Part shown: piece after piece, positions 9,001 through 57,494 of the stretch
How positions within the stretch are numbered: the first letter of the stretch is position 1
How the letters are laid out: each line of letters opens with the position of its first letter
Assembly (NCBI GenBank): GCA_000002435.2
Contig: CM018793.1
Source: Giardia intestinalis
Taxonomy: Eukaryota
Length of the DNA: 64,000 nucleotides
Direction: 5' to 3' (one strand)
Notes under the pieces: model-generated
Told to the model about the DNA's origin: nothing
Databases searched by the model: none
The model's input: the letters and a program-made list of their open reading frames with translations, nothing else
Program-made: the position numbers and the translations under genes

Positions 9001-12000
9001 NNNNNNNNNNNNNNNNNNNNNNNNNNNNNNNNNNNNNNNNNNNNNNNNNNNNNNNNNNNNNNNNNNNNNNNNNNNNNNNNNNNNNNNNNNNNNNNNNNNN
9101 NNNNNNNNNNNNNNNNNNNNNNNNNNNNNNNNNNNNNNNNNNNNNNNNNNNNNNNNNNNNNNNNNNNNNNNNNNNNNNNNNNNNNNNNNNNNNNNNNNNN
9201 NNNNNNNNNNNNNNNNNNNNNNNNNNNNNNNNNNNNNNNNNNNNNNNNNNNNNNNNNNNNNNNNNNNNNNNNNNNNNNNNNNNNNNNNNNNNNNNNNNNN
9301 NNNNNNNNNNNNNNNNNNNNNNNNNNNNNNNNNNNNNNNNNNNNNNNNNNNNNNNNNNNNNNNNNNNNNNNNNNNNNNNNNNNNNNNNNNNNNNNNNNNN
9401 NNNNNNNNNNNNNNNNNNNNNNNNNNNNNNNNNNNNNNNNNNNNNNNNNNNNNNNNNNNNNNNNNNNNNNNNNNNNNNNNNNNNNNNNNNNNNNNNNNNN
9501 NNNNNNNNNNNNNNNNNNNNNNNNNNNNNNNNNNNNNNNNNNNNNNNNNNNNNNNNNNNNNNNNNNNNNNNNNNNNNNNNNNNNNNNNNNNNNNNNNNNN
9601 NNNNNNNNNNNNNNNNNNNNNNNNNNNNNNNNNNNNNNNNNNNNNNNNNNNNNNNNNNNNNNNNNNNNNNNNNNNNNNNNNNNNNNNNNNNNNNNNNNNN
9701 NNNNNNNNNNNNNNNNNNNNNNNNNNNNNNNNNNNNNNNNNNNNNNNNNNNNNNNNNNNNNNNNNNNNNNNNNNNNNNNNNNNNNNNNNNNNNNNNNNNN
9801 NNNNNNNNNNNNNNNNNNNNNNNNNNNNNNNNNNNNNNNNNNNNNNNNNNNNNNNNNNNNNNNNNNNNNNNNNNNNNNNNNNNNNNNNNNNNNNNNNNNN
9901 NNNNNNNNNNNNNNNNNNNNNNNNNNNNNNNNNNNNNNNNNNNNNNNNNNNNNNNNNNNNNNNNNNNNNNNNNNNNNNNNNNNNNNNNNNNNNNNNNNNN
10001 NNNNNNNNNNNNNNNNNNNNNNNNNNNNNNNNNNNNNNNNNNNNNNNNNNNNNNNNNNNNNNNNNNNNNNNNNNNNNNNNNNNNNNNNNNNNNNNNNNNN
10101 NNNNNNNNNNNNNNNNNNNNNNNNNNNNNNNNNNNNNNNNNNNNNNNNNNNNNNNNNNNNNNNNNNNNNNNNNNNNNNNNNNNNNNNNNNNNNNNNNNNN
10201 NNNNNNNNNNNNNNNNNNNNNNNNNNNNNNNNNNNNNNNNNNNNNNNNNNNNNNNNNNNNNNNNNNNNNNNNNNNNNNNNNNNNNNNNNNNNNNNNNNNN
10301 NNNNNNNNNNNNNNNNNNNNNNNNNNNNNNNNNNNNNNNNNNNNNNNNNNNNNNNNNNNNNNNNNNNNNNNNNNNNNNNNNNNNNNNNNNNNNNNNNNNN
10401 NNNNNNNNNNNNNNNNNNNNNNNNNNNNNNNNNNNNNNNNNNNNNNNNNNNNNNNNNNNNNNNNNNNNNNNNNNNNNNNNNNNNNNNNNNNNNNNNNNNN
10501 NNNNNNNNNNNNNNNNNNNNNNNNNNNNNNNNNNNNNNNNNNNNNNNNNNNNNNNNNNNNNNNNNNNNNNNNNNNNNNNNNNNNNNNNNNNNNNNNNNNN
10601 NNNNNNNNNNNNNNNNNNNNNNNNNNNNNNNNNNNNNNNNNNNNNNNNNNNNNNNNNNNNNNNNNNNNNNNNNNNNNNNNNNNNNNNNNNNNNNNNNNNN
10701 NNNNNNNNNNNNNNNNNNNNNNNNNNNNNNNNNNNNNNNNNNNNNNNNNNNNNNNNNNNNNNNNNNNNNNNNNNNNNNNNNNNNNNNNNNNNNNNNNNNN
10801 NNNNNNNNNNNNNNNNNNNNNNNNNNNNNNNNNNNNNNNNNNNNNNNNNNNNNNNNNNNNNNNNNNNNNNNNNNNNNNNNNNNNNNNNNNNNNNNNNNNN
10901 NNNNNNNNNNNNNNNNNNNNNNNNNNNNNNNNNNNNNNNNNNNNNNNNNNNNNNNNNNNNNNNNNNNNNNNNNNNNNNNNNNNNNNNNNNNNNNNNNNNN
11001 NNNNNNNNNNNNNNNNNNNNNNNNNNNNNNNNNNNNNNNNNNNNNNNNNNNNNNNNNNNNNNNNNNNNNNNNNNNNNNNNNNNNNNNNNNNNNNNNNNNN
11101 NNNNNNNNNNNNNNNNNNNNNNNNNNNNNNNNNNNNNNNNNNNNNNNNNNNNNNNNNNNNNNNNNNNNNNNNNNNNNNNNNNNNNNNNNNNNNNNNNNNN
11201 NNNNNNNNNNNNNNNNNNNNNNNNNNNNNNNNNNNNNNNNNNNNNNNNNNNNNNNNNNNNNNNNNNNNNNNNNNNNNNNNNNNNNNNNNNNNNNNNNNNN
11301 NNNNNNNNNNNNNNNNNNNNNNNNNNNNNNNNNNNNNNNNNNNNNNNNNNNNNNNNNNNNNNNNNNNNNNNNNNNNNNNNNNNNNNNNNNNNNNNNNNNN
11401 NNNNNNNNNNNNNNNNNNNNNNNNNNNNNNNNNNNNNNNNNNNNNNNNNNNNNNNNNNNNNNNNNNNNNNNNNNNNNNNNNNNNNNNNNNNNNNNNNNNN
11501 NNNNNNNNNNNNNNNNNNNNNNNNNNNNNNNNNNNNNNNNNNNNNNNNNNNNNNNNNNNNNNNNNNNNNNNNNNNNNNNNNNNNNNNNNNNNNNNNNNNN
11601 NNNNNNNNNNNNNNNNNNNNNNNNNNNNNNNNNNNNNNNNNNNNNNNNNNNNNNNNNNNNNNNNNNNNNNNNNNNNNNNNNNNNNNNNNNNNNNNNNNNN
11701 NNNNNNNNNNNNNNNNNNNNNNNNNNNNNNNNNNNNNNNNNNNNNNNNNNNNNNNNNNNNNNNNNNNNNNNNNNNNNNNNNNNNNNNNNNNNNNNNNNNN
11801 NNNNNNNNNNNNNNNNNNNNNNNNNNNNNNNNNNNNNNNNNNNNNNNNNNNNNNNNNNNNNNNNNNNNNNNNNNNNNNNNNNNNNNNNNNNNNNNNNNNN
11901 NNNNNNNNNNNNNNNNNNNNNNNNNNNNNNNNNNNNNNNNNNNNNNNNNNNNNNNNNNNNNNNNNNNNNNNNNNNNNNNNNNNNNNNNNNNNNNNNNNNN

Positions 12001-51832: not shown

Positions 51833-53194
51833 CTGCTGGGGCTGTACATGAGCAGCCATTACCCCCAATATGCCTTAGCGGTACCTTGAGGATCTACTAG
51901 TGTGCCTAGGGGGTTACTACATGCCACACGACGCTGCTGAGCATTGGATGCCCCTGGTACCAGGAAGTACTTATTATTCTCATTAACAGCGGTACAGACA
52001 CCGTTGGCTGCTGTCTTGCACATGATTCCGGTGATTGACACTATACAACCACCCATTAATGAAGTATCCGTAGTACAGATGTACATAATGGTTATTCACA
52101 GTATTACTTTGACCCACTCACAACACACTCCATCATTGGTATCATATTTGTCTCTCCACAGTAGAACAGTAGTGCTTTGTGGTGCCCTGATCATCATTAT
52201 CATGGCATCACAAGCACCAGAGGTACCCCCCAGGCAGTATCATCCTCACATTTTGTACATGTAACAGGACTGGTACCCTCTGCTTGATAGTTCCTTACAG
52301 CAGTACACTTGAAAGTACTGGCCTCCATTTGCACTTAGCACCCCTCGATGCCCCCATTGTTTGTGTCACTACAGAGAGCACTTCTCCGGGTCTATGACCT
52401 CACAGGAAGAACCCTGCCTTAGGCAGGCATTTCCTCAGCAGTTTGTCTAGCATGTGGCACAGTTGCCCGTGACAGGGGGTGCATGTTACTGACCACTCCG
52501 TACTTTGTATCCCTCCAGGCATTCTTGCAATTGGTTGCACTTCTGCTCTTTAGCAAGCTTCAGCCGCAATGCCTTTGTTCTTTGGTTCTGAATCCGACGC
52601 TGCGGGATCACTGCACAAACGACACACGTTGTCTTCGGTCATAAAGAGACCGTTATCAGCTCCTTGACACCCGGCGTGTTCTTGTCACACGAGGTCGAGG
52701 TTCCATCAAGGTCGTCTCGGGTCTTACTGTATCACAAGCTGTGCACTTCGGCTTCTTGGTAGTCGAATCAACTTCACACTGGGTACATGCTGATCTATCG
52801 TGTTGCAGTCCCTACAAGTTCCGACTCTGGGTCAGCATAAGTGTTTCCAGTGCACTCATTACTATTCACGCATGCATTATCCTTCAGGAACGTATTTCCT
52901 TACAAGAGGTACACTGGGTCGCCGACGTCTCACAGGTCAGGCAAGAGTCCTTGCACTTCTCACATGCGCCGTAACTATTTGAAGTACCCTCTTGCATGCA
53001 GTACACGTGGCAGCCCTGTTACTGTCTGGCGCGTGCATGTGGCGCAGTCTCCACTCCTTAATCCATTCGCTCCTGTGGCATCATGACAGAGTATGCACTC
53101 CCCACCAGGGGTCACCTTGTCTGCCCATTCTGGAATATGTACTGACTTCTGTTTACAAGCAGTGCACAGTCCTCCCTCAGCCTTTGTGCATATC
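51833..53194 (-). pseudogene. Decayed VSP-family pseudogene (partial, runs into the N gap); many frameshifts and stops
   Basis: Reverse-complement translation gives recognisable VSP segments, for example ORF 51859..52086 (-) '...MGGCIVSITGIMCKTAANGVCTAVNENNKYFLVPGASNAQQRRVACSNPLGTLV', which aligns to 'YMGGCYKVDTVPGQHMCKTAANGVCTAVNANNRYFIVPGATNQNQSVLACSNSLGTLV' of the 618-aa unit. The frame is broken repeatedly. For example 52200-52290 reads 'acatgtacaaaatgtgaggatgatactgcctgggggg' against the intact 'tgcaccaagatctgtgaagatgatactgcctgtggagga'. The 5' end at 53150-53194 is identical to the unit junction at 55473-55511 (agtgagatatgcacaaaggctgagggaggactgtgcactgcttg). Confidence 0.7.
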
Positions 53195-53196
53195 TC

Positions 53197-53229
53197 ACTC
53201 CACTATCATACTATCACCCTCTATCACAC
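53197..53229 (-). repeat. Inter-unit short tandem repeat, GTGATAR-type (about 3 copies) in the VSP 3' UTR or spacer
   Basis: Plus strand reads 'cactccactatcatactatcaccctctatcacacc', which on the sense strand is GTGATAGAGGGTGATAGTATGATAGTGGAGTG. This is near-identical to 55505..55538. Confidence 0.6.
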
Positions 53230-53240
53230 CATTGTACAGC

Positions 53241-53247
53241 ATTCACT
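53241..53247 (-). terminator. Putative Giardia polyadenylation signal AGTGAAT (AGTRAAY) after the remnant stop
   Basis: Plus strand 'attcact' 53241-53247 is the reverse complement of AGTGAAT. It lies 8 nt 3' of the stop codon TGA (plus 'tca' 53255-53257). Confidence 0.55.
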
Positions 53248-53254
53248 ACCCAAG

Positions 53255-53350
53255 TCACGCCTTCCCCTGCACACGAACCACCAGCAGAGGAAGCCCACGA
53301 GGCCCCCACGACGAGCGACCACAGCCACGAGACCCCACGCGATGGAGACC
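53255..53350 (-). pseudogene. Remnant of a VSP 3' end (diverged, frameshifted TM helix + CRGKA + TGA)
   Basis: Reverse complement reads '...tgggggcctcgtgggcttcctctgctggtggttcgtgtgcaggggaaggcgtga'. Apart from a 1-nt deletion this matches the intact '...ggg ggc ctc gtg ggc ttc ctc tgc tgg tgg ttc gtg tgc agg ggg aag gcg tga' (GLVGFLCWWFVCRGKA*). Upstream of about 53350 the similarity to VSP stops. Confidence 0.65.
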
Positions 53351-54230
53351 CGCATTGGAGAGCCCGCCCCTGGTGTGGTACTTCATAGACACACAGGAGG
53401 TCCCACTGCTGTCTAGACTGTACTCCCCAATACGATACCACTTACCGCCTACACTTCAACGCTCATCTCGAACCACACAAGCATACTTGATTCGCTCCGA
53501 TCGCCCTAGCGACGAAGACGGACCTTCTAATCGTCGATACAACACCCTAACACACCTCGTTGTTACTTGACCTCAATACGTGTCACATACATACAGGTGA
53601 CAATGATCGCAGGCACAAGATGCATAGCCCGACCCCTGCACTTCAGAATGCATATGCGGGGTCCCCCGCCAAACATGACGGCGCCACTCCCACCACAGCT
53701 GCTGCAGAAACATATATAATCTCGATAGATAAGGGCTATCAAACCTGAGACGTCGGAGAGTCCGCAATCGGAAGAAAGAACGGAAGGCCTGACGCGTAAG
53801 AGTAGCAAATGCGCATCAATCCGTGAGAGAACCTTCGTGCGCGCCACGAGAAGCCCAGTAGAGCTCTTACAATAGCCAAACGCCTCACAGGAGATGACTA
53901 TTGAACCTGATAACATAATGAGCGATTAGTGAGCACACCACAGCGGGACCATATGACGAGCCAGAACCATGACACTCAGAAAATTCAAGCAAAGTTGTTT
54001 CCTTAGTAGATAGGTGCTACTATTGTTCGTCAACCTGCAGAGTTAACACTACAGCGGTCCAGATGGATACAGCAGCCAGTTTTGAGACAGTGACAAGTGT
54101 CGTGGATCTTTCATCCGAACTTCTAGATTATCCAATATGAATGTCACTGAGTCGTCAAACCCTAACGAATAAATAACCGAACATAACTCACCTACGGGAC
54201 CAGCAATAATGCAGTGTAAGCAAACGCGCA
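53351..54230. other. Non-VSP DNA of unknown origin (about 880 bp, lower GC) interrupting a VSP unit
   Basis: No CXXC-rich reading frame on either strand. Only short ORFs of 62-117 aa with no recognisable family. The base composition is clearly less GC-rich than the flanks. One side is the truncation point of the 378-aa VSP fragment (54231..54240) and the other is the TM/CRGKA remnant (53350). Confidence 0.5.
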
Positions 54231-55511
54231 TCATCCTCTCTTCTGCTGAGCAGCAGAGTCCCCGGGAATCTTGAAGTAGCGCCCGACCGGTGTGGTGCAG
54301 AACCCACTTGGAGCCGCAGAGCACATGAGGTTGCCAGGAGCCTTCGACACATCATAGCAACCACCCATATAGAGGAAGTAGTTGTTGGTGCACCGCGTAC
54401 ATACGCCATCGGCGCAGGTATTACCTGCAAGTGCATTGGTGCACTTCCCATTAATAGGGCCATAGCCGGCGCCAACACACTTTGAACAGTAAGAGAGCAT
54501 GCTGCCGTCGTTGCCGACCACGATGGCGTCGCAGGCCCCTGCTGTCCCTCCACATGCAGTCTCATCTTCACAGGTCTTTGTACATGTGAGGTCGCTAGGT
54601 TCTCCGCTGGGTCTGTAGTTGGGCTTACATTCAGTGCATTTGAGGGACCCCACGCCGCCTGTGCACTCGGCACAGCCTGGAATCCCACTTGTCTCGTCAT
54701 CACAGAGAACGCATGTCTTAGGCGGGCCATCCTTAAGGAAGTACCCCGGCATGCATCTTGTACATGTGTTGATTTGACCCGCTGTTCCGCACTCTGCGCA
54801 GTTTCCTGTGCAGGCCTCGCAGGCGTTTCCGTTGACTTTATACCCGTCGACACAAGCCTCGCAGGTGCCTTTTGCGGTGCACAGCTTGCAGTTCTGGACT
54901 CCGCCCTTACCATTGTCGCCGCACTGCACGCACTTCGAGGCGTCGTAGAAGTGCGTCTTGCCCACTTTGCACTCGGCCTCATCAACACAGGTCGTTGTCC
55001 CATCCAGCTCGTCTCTGACCGTCTTACTACCGCAGTCGGTGCACTTCGGCTTTCCCGTGGCGTCGTCGTATGCACACGCGGTGCATCCTTGTATCTCACT
55101 GCAGGCCTTACAGGTCCAGGTCTTCTTGTCCGCATAGTTACCATTGTCACATCCACCAGCATCTACACAAGTGTTACCATCCTTCAGGTACTTCCCCTCA
55201 ACGCAGGCGGTACACTGAGTCGGAGTATCAGCTGAGCAAGCAGAGCAGCCGTCTCCGCACTTCACACATGCACTGTCCTTCGTAACGAACCCTGCTTGAC
55301 ACTCTGTACACGTGGCCGGTCCGCTAGTGCCCGTGTGGGAGCATTCTGAGCATCCAGCGACTCCCATGACCCCGTTTCTATCTGTCGTATCAGAGCACAG
55401 TATGCACTCACTACCCTTCTCTGGTGTTGCAGCCGGGTTCTTGAACAGGCCGTTATCTGCCTTACAAGCAGTGCACAGTCCTCCCTCAGCCTTTGTGCAT
55501 ATCTCACTCCA
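54231..55511 (-). pseudogene. Truncated VSP unit with no start codon and no C-terminal TM/CRGKA; the ORF ends ...GDSAAQQKRG*
   Basis: The ORF track's 54231..55367 (-) 378 aa is CXXC-rich and contains 'NNYFLYMGGCYDV' (a GGCY motif). The frame stays open upstream to the in-frame TAG at 55512-55514 (...*WSEICTKAEGGLCTACKADNGLFKNPAATPEKGSECILCSD...). Its last 110 or so codons are nearly identical to codons of the complete gene at 61250-61584. The ORF then terminates after AAQQ, where the complete gene continues SVLACGNP.... Downstream DNA is unrelated. Confidence 0.75.
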
Positions 55512-55538
55512 CTATCATACTATCACCCTCTATCACAC
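55507..55538 (-). repeat. Inter-unit short tandem repeat, GTGATAR-type (about 3 copies)
   Basis: Plus strand reads 'cactccactatcatactatcaccctctatcacac'. It lies between the stop of the 618-codon unit (55563) and the TAG/TGG/AGT/GAG/ATA/TGC start of the next unit. Confidence 0.6.
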
Positions 55539-55548
55539 ATTGTACAGC

Positions 55549-55555
55549 ATTCACT
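55549..55555 (-). terminator. Putative polyadenylation signal AGTGAAT, 8 nt after the TGA of the 618-codon VSP unit
   Basis: Plus strand 'attcact' 55549-55555 and stop 'tca' 55563-55565. Sense strand reads ...AAG GCG TGA cttgggtAGTGAATgctgtaca. Confidence 0.6.
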
Positions 55556-55562
55556 ACCCAAG

Positions 55563-57419
55563 TCACGCCTTCCCCCTGCACACGAACCACCAGCAGAGGA
55601 AGCCCACGAGGCCCCCCACGACAGCGATGACAGCCACGGAGATCCCTGCTATGGCACCAGTACTGAGGCCGCTTCTGTTGCCCCCGCTGGGCTTGGTGGA
55701 CACGCACGCCTCACCCTCCAGCCTGTAGTCGTCCCCACACTGGCCGCACTTGTTCTCCTCGCTGCACCTGACGCACCCGTCGATATTGCAGGCGATGCAC
55801 TTCGTTCCGTCTGTGTTCGGCCTCTGGTCTTTACTGGTACAGGCCTCGCACTTATCGCCTGCTCCACAGTGCGAGCATCCGTCAACGGTACATGCGAAGC
55901 ACCCGCTCCCAGCCAGGTTGGGCTTGTTGTTGTTGGTACACGCTGTACACACAGCAGCAGTCATACCAGTCTCAGATGGAGCTGCTGGGGCCGTACATGC
56001 CGAACAGCCATCTACCCCCACATATGCCTTAGAGGTATCACCAGTGCCTACTAGTGTGCCAAGGGAGTTGCTACATGCCAATACAGACTGATTCTGATTG
56101 GTTGCCCCAGGGACTATGAAGTACCTATTGTTGGCATTAACAGCAGTACAGACACCGTTGGCTGCTGTCTTGCACATATGTTGTCCAGGTACTGTATCAA
56201 CCTTGTAACAACCTCCCATATACAAGAAGTAGTTGTTAGTGCATTGTGTACATACACCTTGATCACATTGATTATTTGCTTTAGCACTATTACACTTCCC
56301 ATCTATAGGATACGTATTAGCTTCTCCACAGTATGAGCAATAATGATGCTCTACACCCTTATCATCAATCACTATTGCATCGCAGGCACCAGAAGTTCCT
56401 CCACAGGCAGTATCATCTTCACAGATCTTGGTGCATGTGACAGAGCCAGTACTGCCCTCCTTGCGATAGTTAGGCTTACAGTCAGTGCACTTGAAAGCAC
56501 CGTTGTTAGAGCAGACACTGCAGCCTTCGCGACCCTTATCGTCTACGCTATCGCATGGGACGCACTTCTTCCCCTGTTGATCTGTAGTAGTTACTAAGAA
56601 GTATCCAGTCTTGCAGGTTTCACACTTATTTGGATCACCAGCAACAGAGCATGTGGCACAGTTATCACCACACTTGTCTGTACATGTACTAGTACCACTA
56701 TCAAAGAAGTATCCATCGAGACAGGCTGAGCAGGTTGGATTGTCACTTCCTGTTTTCGTACATGTCTTGCAGTTGGCCTTTCCTTCGTTACCAAGAGTTG
56801 AATCTGTCACATCACTACAAAGAGCACACGTTTTGTCCTCCTTCATAAATAAGGCCTCGTCAGCGCCCTCGCATCCTTCAAGCGTCTTCGCCACGCAGGT
56901 CGATGTCCCGTCGAGGGCCGTCCTGGGGGTCTTATTGGTCCCGCAGTTAGTGCACTTCGGCTTCCCCGTGGCCTTGTCGAAGGAGCATGCCGTGCACTCT
57001 GCGTGTATCGTACTACATGCCTTGCATGTTCCCGACTCCGGGTCAGCATAAGTGTTTCCATCGCATCCAGTATCTTGTACACATTGATTACTCTTCAGGT
57101 ACTTCCCCTCTGGGCACGATGTACAATGATTCTGACCACTTCCATCGCAGGTCAGACAAGCTTCATTACATTTGACACATGTCTGAGAGTTCTTGTAGTA
57201 TCCATCTTGGCACTCTGTACACGTGGCAGGTCCTGGACTACTGTCTGACTTGGTACACTGTGCGCAGTTAGCCACCCCTGTATATCCATCTGCCCCATTG
57301 ACATCATGACAGAGGATGCACTCACTACCAGGCTTCTGAGGTGTAACTGGGTTCTTGAACAGGCCGTTATCTGCTTTACAAGCAGTGCACACTCCTCCCT
57401 CAGCCTTTGTGCATATCAC
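55563..57419 (-). CDS. VSP-family ORF, 618 codons, intact frame with C-terminal TM + CRGKA but no ATG or signal peptide (startless cassette or young pseudogene)
   Basis: Protein ends '...NRSGLSTGAIAGISVAVIAVVGGLVGFLCWWFVCRGKA'. It has many CXXC motifs and a GGCY motif 'NNYFLYMGGCYKV'. The first codon reported as M is GTG (57417-57419 plus 'cac'). It is preceded in frame by AGT, TGG, TAG (stop at 57426-57428). Immediately 5' are the 3' UTR repeats and the stop of the upstream unit. No hydrophobic signal peptide. Confidence 0.6.
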   Translation of the reverse strand: MICTKAEGGVCTACKADNGLFKNPVTPQKPGSECILCHDVNGADGYTGVANCAQCTKSDSSPGPATCTECQDGYYKNSQTCVKCNEACLTCDGSGQNHCTSCPEGKYLKSNQCVQDTGCDGNTYADPESGTCKACSTIHAECTACSFDKATGKPKCTNCGTNKTPRTALDGTSTCVAKTLEGCEGADEALFMKEDKTCALCSDVTDSTLGNEGKANCKTCTKTGSDNPTCSACLDGYFFDSGTSTCTDKCGDNCATCSVAGDPNKCETCKTGYFLVTTTDQQGKKCVPCDSVDDKGREGCSVCSNNGAFKCTDCKPNYRKEGSTGSVTCTKICEDDTACGGTSGACDAIVIDDKGVEHHYCSYCGEANTYPIDGKCNSAKANNQCDQGVCTQCTNNYFLYMGGCYKVDTVPGQHMCKTAANGVCTAVNANNRYFIVPGATNQNQSVLACSNSLGTLVGTGDTSKAYVGVDGCSACTAPAAPSETGMTAAVCTACTNNNKPNLAGSGCFACTVDGCSHCGAGDKCEACTSKDQRPNTDGTKCIACNIDGCVRCSEENKCGQCGDDYRLEGEACVSTKPSGGNRSGLSTGAIAGISVAVIAVVGGLVGFLCWWFVCRGKA

Positions 57420-57420
57420 A

Positions 57421-57470
57421 CTCCACTATCACTATCACCCATTATCACCCACTATCACCTTCTATCACAC
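57421..57470 (-). repeat. Inter-unit short tandem repeat, GTGATAR-type (about 5 copies)
   Basis: Plus strand reads 'ctccactatcactatcacccattatcacccactatcaccttctatcacac' (units ccactatcac / tatcac / ccattatcac / ccactatcac / cttctatcac). Copy number differs from the other spacers. Confidence 0.65.
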
Positions 57471-57480
57471 ATTGTACAGC

Positions 57481-57487
57481 ATTCACT
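57481..57487 (-). terminator. Putative polyadenylation signal AGTGAAT after the TGA of the 1024-codon unit
   Basis: Plus strand 'attcact' 57481-57487 and stop 'tca' 57495-57497. Confidence 0.6.
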
Positions 57488-57494
57488 ACCTAAG

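What the first reader, a model, noticed from the sequence alone, without database searches (positions are those of the whole stretch)
57420..57494. GTGATAR micro-repeat spacer with variable copy number gives junction microhomology with the gene body
Every inter-unit spacer is [TGA]-N7-AGTGAAT-N8-(GTGATAR-like decamer) x3-5 followed by GAGTG(A/T)GATATGCACAAAGG. The repeat motif (sense strand: gtgatagaaggtgatagtgggtgataatgggtgatagtgatagtggagtgtgatatgc) runs straight into the first codons of the next unit (AGT GAG ATA TGC). Those codons are the same sequence found internally in the complete gene at 62560-62575 (ggcagtgagatatgtacaaaggcc). The duplication breakpoint therefore sits in a GTGA(G)ATA microhomology shared by the 3' UTR repeat and the coding sequence, which suggests unequal crossing-over between the two. 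Copy number differs between spacers (3, 5, 4 and 3), as in minisatellites. The TGATAG cores also place stops in all three frames between units.
Basis: seen in the sequence. Interest (0 to 1): 0.6.

Follow-up and report, generated by a model that had tools for sequence, protein, structure and literature searches.

The report
Repeat-bearing junctions of a Giardia surface-antigen array
The flagged stretch is one of four near-identical short spacers joining 5'-truncated pseudogene copies in a known kind of Giardia surface-antigen (VSP) gene array. Its 10-base GTGATAR repeat is real and seems specific to such internal junctions, but the proposed microhomology origin is not supported beyond chance.

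Summary
On the minus strand, 51833-62885 is a head-to-tail array from Giardia intestinalis WB. It holds one complete VSP gene (100% identical to an annotated WB VSP) and four start-less units.

Each of the four spacers contains, in order:
- the stop codon;
- the known extended VSP poly(A) signal;
- GCTRTACAAT;
- 2-4 in-register decamers NNGTGATARN, plus a partial copy in S2, S3 and S4;
- a unit beginning at ...S(E/V)ICTKA.

This kind of array and its start-less units are already published (Adam 2010; Xu 2020). I found no description of the decamer repeat.

In my sample the repeat sits at all 11 internal junctions from 4 arrays. It is absent after all 6 stand-alone or array-terminal VSPs.

It joins three different points of the VSP body. 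The window's SEICT junction aligns as a 49-nt deletion derivative of a longer junction, with at most 1-2 nt of microhomology.

The repeat also lies downstream of the predicted cleavage site, so it is not really 3' UTR.

Best reading: a slippage-prone junction scar inside a conserved, converted homology block.

The parts
60639..62885 (-). Head gene of the array: a complete VSP of 748 aa with signal peptide and CRGKA tail. Its ATG sits inside the VSP initiator motif cTAATGTTc.
   Evidence: It is 100% identical over 748 aa to an annotated VSP of G. intestinalis WB on a 4,018,654-bp contig, Pfam PF03302.
62550..62573 (-). Internal site of the head gene, GGCAGTGAGATATGTACAAAGGCC (GSEICTKA). The downstream units begin at the equivalent point.
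   Evidence: Its similarity to the repeat is not above chance.
60570..60638 (-). Spacer S1. Extended poly(A) signal CTCAGGTAGTGAAT at 60638-60625, GCTATACAAT, then four in-register decamers at 60614-60575, then GGAGT.
   Evidence: TRF period 10, score 59.
57495..60569 (-). Unit B: a start-less VSP pseudogene. The ORF is 1024 aa, opens at GTG and ends in CRGKA.
   Evidence: There is no identical protein in the database; the best hit is 81% to an old WB annotation.
57420..57494 (-). Spacer S2, the flagged interval. Poly(A) signal at 57494-57481, GCTGTACAAT, then four decamers plus a GATAGT hexamer at 57470-57425, then GGAGT.
   Evidence: TRF period 10, score 57. No RNA structure (z +1.56).
55563..57419 (-). 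Unit C: a start-less VSP pseudogene. The ORF is 618 aa and ends in CRGKA.
   Evidence: An old WB annotation (XP_001705784.1, 427 aa, P0099) begins with residues found inside this ORF (MKEDKTCALCSDV...), consistent with a call from an internal ATG.
55509..55562 (-). Spacer S3. Poly(A) signal at 55562-55549, then two decamers plus the 8-mer ATGATAGT at 55538-55511.
53255..55508 (-). Unit D: a start-less VSP pseudogene. It is interrupted by about 800 bp of non-VSP sequence (about 53430-54230) and has a degenerate CRGKA tail.
   Evidence: It carries a 284-nt perfect match to the head gene.
53200..53254 (-). Spacer S4. It is the same as S3 apart from one extra G.
   Evidence: S3 and S4 are 100% identical over the aligned spacer.
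51833..53199 (-). Unit E: a decayed VSP pseudogene with frameshifts and stops. It runs into the N gap.

Best explanation
The interval is one internal junction of a Giardia VSP 'linear array'. Such an array is an intact, initiator-bearing VSP gene followed head-to-tail by 5'-truncated VSP pseudogenes without start codons.

Each junction contains, in order:
(i) the stop codon and the VSP-specific extended poly(A) signal of the upstream unit;
(ii) about 10 nt of flank;
(iii) a short tract of decamers (NNGTGATARN) prone to slippage;
(iv) the truncated 5' end of the next unit.

The decamer tract behaves as a scar that is inherited and keeps being remodelled. It is specific to array junctions and is not a general VSP 3' element. 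It gains and loses copies or part-copies. Deletions that start in it have removed different amounts of the downstream unit's 5' end.

The SEICT joint in this window is such a secondary product: a 49-nt deletion from the longer GLLFMGGCY-type joint. It is not the founding breakpoint.

The spacer probably has no function of its own. It lies inside a block of roughly 240 bp spanning the TM-CRGKA coding end, the poly(A) signal, the spacer and the first 60 nt of the next unit. That block is 63-100% identical between units (mostly 83-100%; the lower values all involve the decayed S4 context), while the sequence on either side is only 34-79% identical. The block is the likely substrate for unequal crossing-over and gene conversion, which resize the array and move sequence between pseudogene units and the intact head gene.

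Shown here: the anatomy, the distribution, the deletion relationship, the conserved mosaic block, and a conversion tract.
Inferred: slippage as the mechanism, lack of function, and the role of the block as a recombination substrate.
For: Identity and anatomy:
- The head gene is 100% identical to a WB VSP and carries the initiator TAATGTT.
- The units end in CRGKA and lack an ATG and a signal peptide.
- Published descriptions match. Over half of WB vsp genes lie in linear arrays with mean 60-bp spacers, and downstream members lack an initiator or start codon (PMC2996952). [quoted passage not shown] The extended signal ACUUAGRUAGURAAYRY occurs in 323 VSPs and pseudo-VSPs.

Junction specificity:
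- Decamers are present at 11 of 11 internal junctions: window x4, the L001/L007 array x3, L006 x3, and L010 from isolate DH x1.
- They are absent after 6 of 6 stand-alone or terminal VSPs, including the last unit of the DH array.

Remodelling:
- Copy number ranges from 1 to at least 6.
- There are three junction classes.
- Alignment A1 shows the window spacers equal the DH/L006a spacers minus 49 nt. S2 shares GATAGTGATAGTG with DH, and S3/S4 share GATAGTATGATAGTGG with L006a.
- The L001/L007 joint equals the S1 type minus 13 nt between GTGAT repeats.

Conserved mosaic block:
- The junction block is 63-100% identical between units (mostly 83-100%), against 34-79% on either side. Variants are shared in a patchwork among S1-S4.
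- Exact matches of 56-67 nt occur near unit ends.

Exchange with the head gene:
- A 284-nt perfect match, within 342 nt that are near-perfect, links gene A 61586-61245 and unit D 54584-54243. The surrounding sequence is 40-74% identical.

No sign of an RNA role:
- No RNA structure and no Rfam match.
Against: - The sample is small: 4 arrays and 6 non-array flanks, all the arrays of assemblage-A type. It was drawn through protein hits rather than a genome-wide scan.
- The direction 'long joint to short joint' is the parsimonious reading of an alignment, not a dated phylogeny.
- The AT-indel variants shared between short and long joints (S2 with DH, S3/S4 with L006a) require either conversion between arrays or two independent deletions at the same site. 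Two independent deletions would argue for a real hotspot.
- Within in-register decamers the 6-nt core GTGATA is almost invariant (1 change in 132 sites). All variation falls at the 4 linker positions. My rough estimate is p about 0.02 after allowing for shared ancestry. That hints at constraint on the core, which a purely neutral scar does not predict.
- No population or long-read data could be examined, so slippage in real time is not shown.
Confidence: 0.65

Rival explanations
1. A GTGATAR repeat already present in the VSP 3' UTR paired with GTGAGATA inside the coding sequence. Recombination at that microhomology created the founding duplication, whose breakpoint is the SEICT joint.
For: - The coding site GGCAGTGAGATATG does resemble the repeat.
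- S1 and S2 read GTGTGATATGC, and the L001/L007 joint reads GGGTGATATGC, so there the last repeat copy runs straight into the unit.
- The closest stand-alone relative of the head gene, isolate DH locus L002, has a single TGGTGATGG about 20 nt after its poly(A) signal. That is where the first decamer sits in the arrays.
Against: - The similarity is matched by 10.9% of windows in the gene.
- Homology to coding sequence extends upstream of GTGAGATA, which puts the breakpoint outside it.
- The same repeat is joined to two other coding positions.
- The SEICT joint aligns as a 49-nt deletion of a longer joint.
- The repeat is absent from 6 of 6 non-junction VSP flanks.
- S3 and S4 keep the ancestral GAG, so the perfect GTGATA match in S1 and S2 is derived.
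Confidence: 0.12
2. The decamer tract was seeded by VSP coding sequence rather than by 3' flank. In this model the original truncation point lay at the ...CG(K)CGDGYFLFMGGCY... codons, and a GGTGATGGG-like stretch (Gly-Asp-Gly) was amplified by slippage into (GGGTGATAGT)n.
For: - In the long joints, the residues just before LLFMGGCY read WCGGDS..., aligning with KCGDGY of full-length VSPs.
- In L006a and L010 the last repeat copy abuts GGGACTTCTCTTCATGGG, which aligns with GGGTACTTCCTCTTCATGGG of intact genes.
Against: - The three intact assemblage-A genes examined encode Gly-Asp as GGCGAC, not GGTGAT.
- Old WB annotations starting MLYSDSDSAMWCGGDS imply GATAGT copies on both sides of the WCGG remnant. 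This rests on back-translation and is an inference.
- The first decamer always follows GCTRTACAAT directly, whatever the downstream joint.
Confidence: 0.12
3. The tract is a functional cis-element kept by selection. Three candidates: a GU-rich downstream element aiding 3'-end formation or termination between units; a translational barrier with stops in all frames; or a phased array of protein-binding sites, since TGATAR equals the WGATAR consensus and the copies are spaced one helical turn apart.
For: - The core GTGATA is nearly invariant while the linkers vary. Position 9 is always a purine in true spacer copies, which preserves both the TAR stop codon and WGATAR.
- The tract begins about where cleavage is predicted (by inference).
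- All three frames are closed in every spacer.
- The spacer is as conserved as the adjacent coding end.
Against: - Intact stand-alone VSPs are the genes that are actually expressed, and they lack the tract (6 of 6).
- The downstream units are decaying pseudogenes, so a stop barrier has no obvious value once the upstream TGA has been read.
- Copy number and spacer length vary freely (1 to at least 6 copies).
- A literature search found no Giardia GATA-type factor.
- Conservation is equally well explained by gene conversion.
Confidence: 0.08
4. The feature is an assembly artefact of a repetitive region next to a gap.
For: The array abuts a 51.8-kb run of N. The reference paper states that gaps lie at long repeats (PMC7000408).
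Against: - The units are only about 70% identical in their bodies, so they cannot collapse onto one another.
- The same spacer architecture appears in independent assemblies built with other technologies: the DH contig AHGT01000001, two k141-named ENA assembly contigs and one ENA metagenome scaffold.
Confidence: 0.02

Closest known systems
Giardia lamblia vsp 'linear arrays' / pseudo-VSP arrays (Adam et al. 2010, PMC2996952; Xu et al. 2020, PMC7000408)
   Same: - Head-to-tail VSP units with spacers of about 60 bp.
- The first member is complete and carries an initiator.
- Downstream members lack a start codon and signal peptide.
- All units keep the CRGKA tail and the poly(A) signal.
- The arrays sit at contig ends or gaps.
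- They were proposed as recombination cassettes.
   Different: Nothing in kind: this locus is one of those arrays in the reference strain. I did not find these points in the papers read:
- the conserved decamer tract;
- its restriction to internal junctions;
- the nested truncation classes.
Extended VSP polyadenylation signal ACUUAGRUAGURAAYRY (bioRxiv 10.1101/2022.03.07.483299)
   Same: The TGA-N7-AGTGAAT part of every spacer is this signal: (A)CTYRGGTAGTGAATGC.
   Different: The decamer tract lies beyond the published motif. It is not present after stand-alone VSPs.
Telomere-adjacent pseudo-VSP arrays of Giardia muris that exchange sequence with intact VSPs (PMC7641422)
   Same: Both are tandem arrays of VSP copies lacking a signal peptide. 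Both show evidence of genetic exchange with intact genes. Here that evidence is the 284-nt perfect tract between gene A and unit D.
   Different: It is a different species with a different tail (CRGK). The spacer sequence was not compared, and no G. muris DNA was examined here.
Minisatellite-like short tandem repeats (period about 10) evolving by replication slippage
   Same: Head-to-tail 10-nt units whose copy number differs between paralogous copies. Part-copies and deletions occur between repeat cores.
   Different: The tracts are very short (2-6 copies). The variation is documented between paralogous spacers, not between alleles or isolates. The one array seen in two samples (L001 and L007) had the same copy number in both.
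Pseudogene donor arrays for antigenic variation by gene conversion (for example trypanosome VSG arrays with 70-bp repeats); recalled from general knowledge, not tested here
   Same: Silent, often truncated copies lie in tandem and are separated by a short conserved repeat-bearing boundary. Sequence moves from them into an expressible gene.
   Different: Published work attributes Giardia VSP switching to epigenetic or post-transcriptional control, not to DNA rearrangement (PMC2996952 abstract). No recombination role of the Giardia spacer has been shown.

Membership tests
Giardia VSP linear array (pseudo-VSP array) junction | Adjacent VSP units lie head-to-tail, separated by a short spacer (published range: overlapping to 241 bp, mean 60 bp). 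| tested here: met
   Five units lie on the minus strand. The spacers are 54-75 nt between stop codon and unit (PMC2996952).
Giardia VSP linear array (pseudo-VSP array) junction | The first member is complete, with signal peptide and initiator (TAATGTT or CAATGTT). Downstream members lack an initiator and a proper start codon. | tested here: met
   Gene A starts MFQLIPLF... within cTAATGTTc. Units B-E open directly after in-frame stops with no ATG, at S(E/V)ICTKA.
Giardia VSP linear array (pseudo-VSP array) junction | Units carry the conserved TM-CRGKA 3' end and the extended VSP poly(A) signal. | tested here: met
   All units end in CRGKA, degenerate in unit D. CTYRGGTAGTGAAT follows each stop codon. 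The motif is as published.
Giardia VSP linear array (pseudo-VSP array) junction | The sequence comes from Giardia intestinalis. | tested here: met
   Gene A is 100% identical over 748 aa to a WB (ATCC 50803) VSP on a 4,018,654-bp contig.
Minisatellite / short tandem repeat | Head-to-tail copies of a unit of about 10 nt, detectable above chance. | tested here: met
   TRF reports period 10 with scores 57-62. GTGATAR occurs 15 times against 3.2 expected. Core spacing is exactly 10 nt.
Minisatellite / short tandem repeat | Copy number is polymorphic between alleles or isolates at the same locus. | not testable with these tools
   No second copy of this locus could be retrieved: exact look-ups failed and unit B has no identical database entry. 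The only array seen in two samples (L001 and L007) had equal copy number.
Microhomology-mediated duplication or deletion joint | The two parental sequences share a short identical stretch exactly at the breakpoint, more than chance predicts. | tested here: inconclusive
- For the inferred 49-nt deletion, only 1-2 nt are shared.
- For the 13-nt difference between the S1 and L001 joints, a 5-nt GTGAT repeat flanks the deletion.
General VSP 3' UTR element | Present downstream of VSP genes irrespective of what follows, and included in the mature transcript. | tested here: not met
   The tract is absent after 6 of 6 stand-alone or terminal VSPs in DH, GS, P15 and ENA assemblies. It starts at or beyond the predicted cleavage site, by inference.
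GATA-type factor binding-site array | WGATAR sites, plus a cognate GATA zinc-finger factor in the organism. | not tested
   The sequence consensus is met, as TGATAG or TGATAA in every copy. A literature search gave no Giardia GATA factor. No proteome search or binding assay was done.

The most novel reading that the evidence does not exclude
The phased, core-invariant GTGATA decamer tract is not a passive scar. In this reading it is the active boundary element of VSP pseudogene cassettes. It would be a hotspot for breaks, template switching or protein binding, which together with the flanking conserved block starts gene conversion between silent units and the expressible head gene. That would give Giardia a DNA-level route to new surface antigens alongside its epigenetic switching. 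Recurrent deletion at the same endpoints (S2 with DH, and S3/S4 with L006a, sharing the AT-indel variants) would then be the footprint of that hotspot.
Probability: 0.1. Interest if true: 0.65.

Novelty: new member of a known kind. Interest (0 to 1): 0.3.

Why it matters
VSP arrays make up a large share of the Giardia antigen repertoire, and their origin and use are unresolved. A sequence signature that marks internal array junctions would be useful in three ways:
- Arrays and their unit boundaries could be annotated automatically.
- Truncation classes could be ordered into a history of each array.
- Conversion tracts such as the 284-nt one seen here could be tested for starting at the junction block.

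That would make the long-standing 'pseudogene cassettes as a reservoir' idea directly testable. For this interval alone the result is modest: a known type of locus, with a small undescribed detail and a corrected origin story.

Tried and rejected
- **Exact-product look-ups of the head gene.** Both the window ORF and P0001 returned nothing. The same locus in other assemblies, and other WB arrays, could therefore not be fetched.
- **Metagenome scan.** A scan for GGTAGTGAATGCTRTACAATG found nothing.
- **Short-peptide search.** A 75-aa query (MLYSDSDS...) meant to collect ORFs that start inside spacers returned no candidates and cost one search.
- **Search with unit B.** It found no identical or near-identical copy; the best hit was 81%. 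Copy-number polymorphism at this locus could not be assessed.
- **Assemblage B and E loci (L003, L004, L008, L009).** These turned out not to be linear arrays and served only as negative controls for the 3' flank.
- **In-frame spacers.** S1-S3 have lengths of 75, 81 and 63 nt, all multiples of three. This looked suggestive, but other arrays put the downstream unit in frame 1 or 2, so it is probably chance.
- **RNA element.** No structure (z +1.56) and no Rfam family.
- **Retroposed cDNA origin of units.** Rejected, because no poly(A) tract follows the signal.
- **Synteny with isolate DH (L002).** The upstream region matches at only 91% and the window has just 1.1 kb upstream, so orthology is undecided.
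- **Literature string search.** GTGATAG with Giardia returned only primer sequences.

Full report
**What the window contains**

Positions 1-51832 are N. Only 51833-64000 is real sequence. Everything relevant lies on the minus strand.

ORF listing and translation show cysteine-rich proteins ending in ...GFLCWWF(I/V)CRGKA. This is the signature of Giardia variant-specific surface proteins (VSPs).

The 748-aa product of 60639-62885 is 100% identical to an annotated VSP of G. intestinalis WB (ATCC 50803). That protein lies on a 4,018,654-bp contig and matches Pfam PF03302.

The WB reference paper says its four internal gaps were filled with N, sized from optical maps. [quoted passage not shown] The window is therefore the edge of one such gap in the reference genome.

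**Anatomy of the array**

Reading the minus strand from high to low coordinates:
- Gene A (62885-60639) is complete. It has a signal peptide, and its ATG lies inside the VSP initiator motif cTAATGTTc.
- Unit B (60569-57495) is a 1024-aa ORF.
- Unit C (57419-55563) is a 618-aa ORF.
- Unit D (55508-53255) is interrupted.
- Unit E (53199-51833) is decayed and runs into the gap.

None of units B-E has an ATG or a signal peptide. Each opens just after in-frame stops, at the residues S(E/V)ICTKA. Those residues lie at about position 105 of gene A, encoded by GGCAGTGAGATATGTACAAAGGCC at 62573-62550.

**Check of the observation**

The four spacers are S1 60570-60638, S2 57420-57494 (the flagged interval), S3 55509-55562 and S4 53200-53254. 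All follow one plan: TGA, CTYRGGT, AGTGAAT, GCTRTACAAT, in-register decamers NNGTGATARN, then GGAGTG(A/T)GATATGCACAAAGG.

- S1 has four decamers.
- S2 has four plus a GATAGT hexamer.
- S3 and S4 have two plus the 8-mer ATGATAGT.

Further support:
- TRF finds the period-10 arrays.
- GTGATAR occurs 15 times against 3.2 expected, and 13 of the 15 fall in the spacers.
- All three reading frames are closed in every spacer. This works because TGA and TAR of one core share a frame and the 10-nt period shifts the frame by one per copy.

The gap after AGTGAAT is 10 nt, and the copy numbers by coordinate are 3, 3, 5, 4.

**What is already known**

Adam et al. 2010 describe 'linear arrays' holding over half of WB vsp genes. 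Their features are spacers averaging 60 bp, a first member with an initiator, downstream members without an initiator or start codon, a tendency to end contigs, and a proposed role as recombination cassettes or discarded genes (PMC2996952).

The TGA-N7-AGTGAAT element is the published extended VSP poly(A) signal ACUUAGRUAGURAAYRY. It was found at 323 VSPs and pseudo-VSPs. Cleavage typically occurs 13-15 nt after the hexamer (bioRxiv 10.1101/2022.03.07.483299).

By that spacing, cleavage is predicted at or just before the first decamer. The repeat is therefore largely downstream of the transcript end and is not 3' UTR. This is an inference.

I found no description of the decamer tract. Section 15 of Adam 2010 does not mention it, and a string search returned only primers.

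**Distribution of the repeat elsewhere**

Through protein hits I fetched ten loci. The internal array junctions were:
- L001 and L007 (ENA assemblies): one array seen in two samples, with three junctions. Each reads GCTRTACAAT, three decamers, then GGGTGATATGCACAGCA.
- L006 (ENA): three junctions.
- L010 (isolate DH, assemblage A2, contig AHGT01000001): one junction.

Together with the window, that makes 11 internal junctions in 4 arrays. All carry the tract, with 1 to at least 6 copies.

The flanks after stand-alone or terminal VSPs were L002 (DH), L003 (P15), L004 (GS), L005 (ENA), L009 (assemblage-B type) and the last unit of the L010 array. All 6 lack the tract.

On this limited sample the tract marks internal junctions of assemblage-A arrays. 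It is not a feature of VSP 3' flanks in general.

**Where start-less units begin**

There are at least three classes:
1. S(E/V)ICT or VICT: the window, L001 and L007.
2. (V/M)GLLF(M/I)GGCYK...PGSEICT, 17 codons further upstream: L006a and L010. Old WB annotations that start inside the spacer also belong here (MLYSDSDSAMWCGGDSGGVGLLFMGGCY..., P0027, P0038, P0044, P0057). Reading MLY as ATGCTGTAC and DSDS as GATAGTGATAGT is my back-translation.
3. A 70-residue mini-unit beginning at CVGGCKSC near the C-terminus: L006b. It resembles vsp14 in Adam 2010.

**Relationship between the joints**

Alignment A1 places the window spacers against L010 and L006a with a single 49-column gap. The gap covers GTGGGACTTCTCTTCATGGGCGGGTGCTACAAGACAGAGAGTCAGCCCG.

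- On the left, S2 shares GGGTGATAGTGATAGTG with L010, and S3/S4 share GGGTGATAGTATGATAGTGG with L006a.
- On the right, G(G/C)AGTGA(G/C)ATATGC is common to all.

The simplest reading is that the SEICT joint is a deletion derivative of the longer joint.

The L001/L007 joint equals an S1-type joint minus 13 nt bounded by GTGAT direct repeats. This shows that repeat cores do mediate small deletions.

**Test of the microhomology claim**

I scored every 16-nt window of gene A against the spacer repeats by local alignment. The SEICT site scores 7. In total 10.9% of windows, spread over many separate sites, score at least as high.

VSP genes are rich in GTG, GAT and AGT words, so the resemblance is not evidence of mechanism.

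**Conservation and exchange**

Aligned junction contexts give these identities between units:
- 77-96% over the TM-CRGKA coding end;
- 89-100% over the stop codon, signal and GCTRTACAAT;
- 86-100% over the decamer zone;
- 63-97% over the first 60 nt of the next unit;
- 48-79% over the next 120 nt of the unit, and 56-68% beyond that;
- 34-62% upstream of the TM region.

BLAST of whole unit bodies gives 67-77%.

Variants are shared in a patchwork: S1 with S2, S3 with S4, S2 with S3/S4, and S1 with S3. Exact matches of 56-67 nt occur near unit ends. This is the pattern expected from gene conversion or unequal exchange centred on the junction block.

Separately, gene A 61550-61267 and unit D 54548-54265 are identical over 284 nt. 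The near-identical stretch is 342 nt long. The surrounding sequence is 40-74% identical. This is a recent transfer between the intact head gene and a pseudogene unit 7 kb away. It fits the cassette idea of Adam 2010 and the exchange reported for G. muris (PMC7641422).

**Function**

The sense strand of S2 folds no better than shuffled sequence (z +1.56). Rfam finds nothing in the 12 kb.

One feature is not explained by a purely neutral scar. In 22 in-register decamers the core GTGATA has 1 change in 132 sites, while positions 1, 2, 9 and 10 carry all the variation. Allowing for shared ancestry, with about 7 mutational events confined to 4 contiguous positions, my rough estimate is p about 0.02.

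Three explanations are possible:
- slippage favours intact cores;
- selection keeps the stop codons;
- the cores are a binding site, since TGATAR equals WGATAR at 10-bp phasing.

A literature search gave no Giardia GATA factor. I rate a dedicated function as unlikely, about 0.1.

**Verdict**

The feature is real and is ordinary in kind. It is an internal junction of a published type of VSP pseudogene array in the reference strain.

The mechanistic reading needs four corrections:
- the repeat is junction-specific rather than a VSP 3' UTR element;
- the SEICT start is one of several junction points;
- the SEICT start looks secondary;
- the microhomology is not above chance.

What may be new is the junction signature itself and the nested truncation series.

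Noticed in passing
window 1-51832: The first 51,832 bases are N. This is an assembly gap, which the WB reference paper says is sized from optical maps. The VSP array (unit E) runs straight into it, so the array is probably longer than what is seen here.
   Followed up: partly
window 61245-61586 (gene A) and 54243-54584 (unit D), minus strand: There is a 284-nt perfect match within a 342-nt near-perfect stretch between the intact head gene and a pseudogene unit 7 kb away. The surrounding sequence is 40-74% identical. It looks like a recent gene-conversion tract, and it ends where unit D is interrupted.
   Followed up: yes
window ~53430-54230, minus strand: About 800 bp of non-VSP, lower-GC sequence replaces the C-terminal third of unit D. 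It lies between ...AAQQKRG* and a degenerate TM-CRGKA tail. It has no similarity to the rest of the window or to any fetched locus, and its origin is unknown.
   Followed up: partly
L002 9235-12570 (isolate DH, AHGT01000028) versus window 63846-59032: A stand-alone DH VSP (P0002) is a mosaic. Its upstream region is 91% identical to that of gene A, its 5' part is 84% identical to gene A, and its body is closest (75%) to unit B. An acyltransferase gene follows 256 bp downstream, so there is no array. Its 3' flank has a single TGGTGATGG where the arrays carry the first decamer.
   Followed up: partly
L004 ~9970-10090, L008 ~2190-2260, L009 ~380-450: Assemblage-B-type VSP ORFs, many annotated as 'partial', start at VNDPAGVSIDSLCRP without a signal peptide. 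They sit directly after a conserved upstream sequence ...GGTGCCAACAGTGTGAGTGAACGATCC..., which contains a poly(A)-signal-like AGTGAAC. These are not linear-array junctions and carry no GTGATAR tract.
   Followed up: no
window S1-S3 (60566-60641, 57416-57497, 55502-55565): The distance from the stop codon to the unit's ATA codon is 75, 81 and 63 nt, all multiples of three. Gene A and units B-D therefore share one reading frame. Length differences between these spacers are 6, 12 and 18 nt rather than multiples of 10. In other arrays the downstream unit is in frame 1 or 2, so this is probably chance.
   Followed up: yes
window 60614-60575, 57470-57425 and the homologous tracts in L001, L006, L007, L010: Within in-register decamers the core GTGATA is almost invariant, and all variation sits at the four linker positions. 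TGATAR matches the WGATAR consensus, and the copies are spaced 10 bp apart.
   Followed up: partly
window 60619-60613, 57475-57469, 55543-55537 (minus strand CAATGTG): The conserved GCTRTACAATGTG after the poly(A) signal contains CAATGTG, one mismatch from the published VSP initiator CAATGTT. The short ORF from that ATG stops within a few codons. The motif is absent from two L006 spacers, which read TATAGTGTG instead.
   Followed up: no
L007 105-1634 and 2114-3643: Two successive units of this metagenome scaffold are 100% identical over 1530 nt. This is either a very recent tandem duplication or an assembler wrap-around of a repeat. I therefore counted its two spacers as one.
   Followed up: partly
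window 62001-64000: GC content rises to 62% over the 5' end and upstream region of the head gene, against about 50% in the pseudogene units. An ORF stays open for 63 codons upstream of the true ATG.
   Followed up: no
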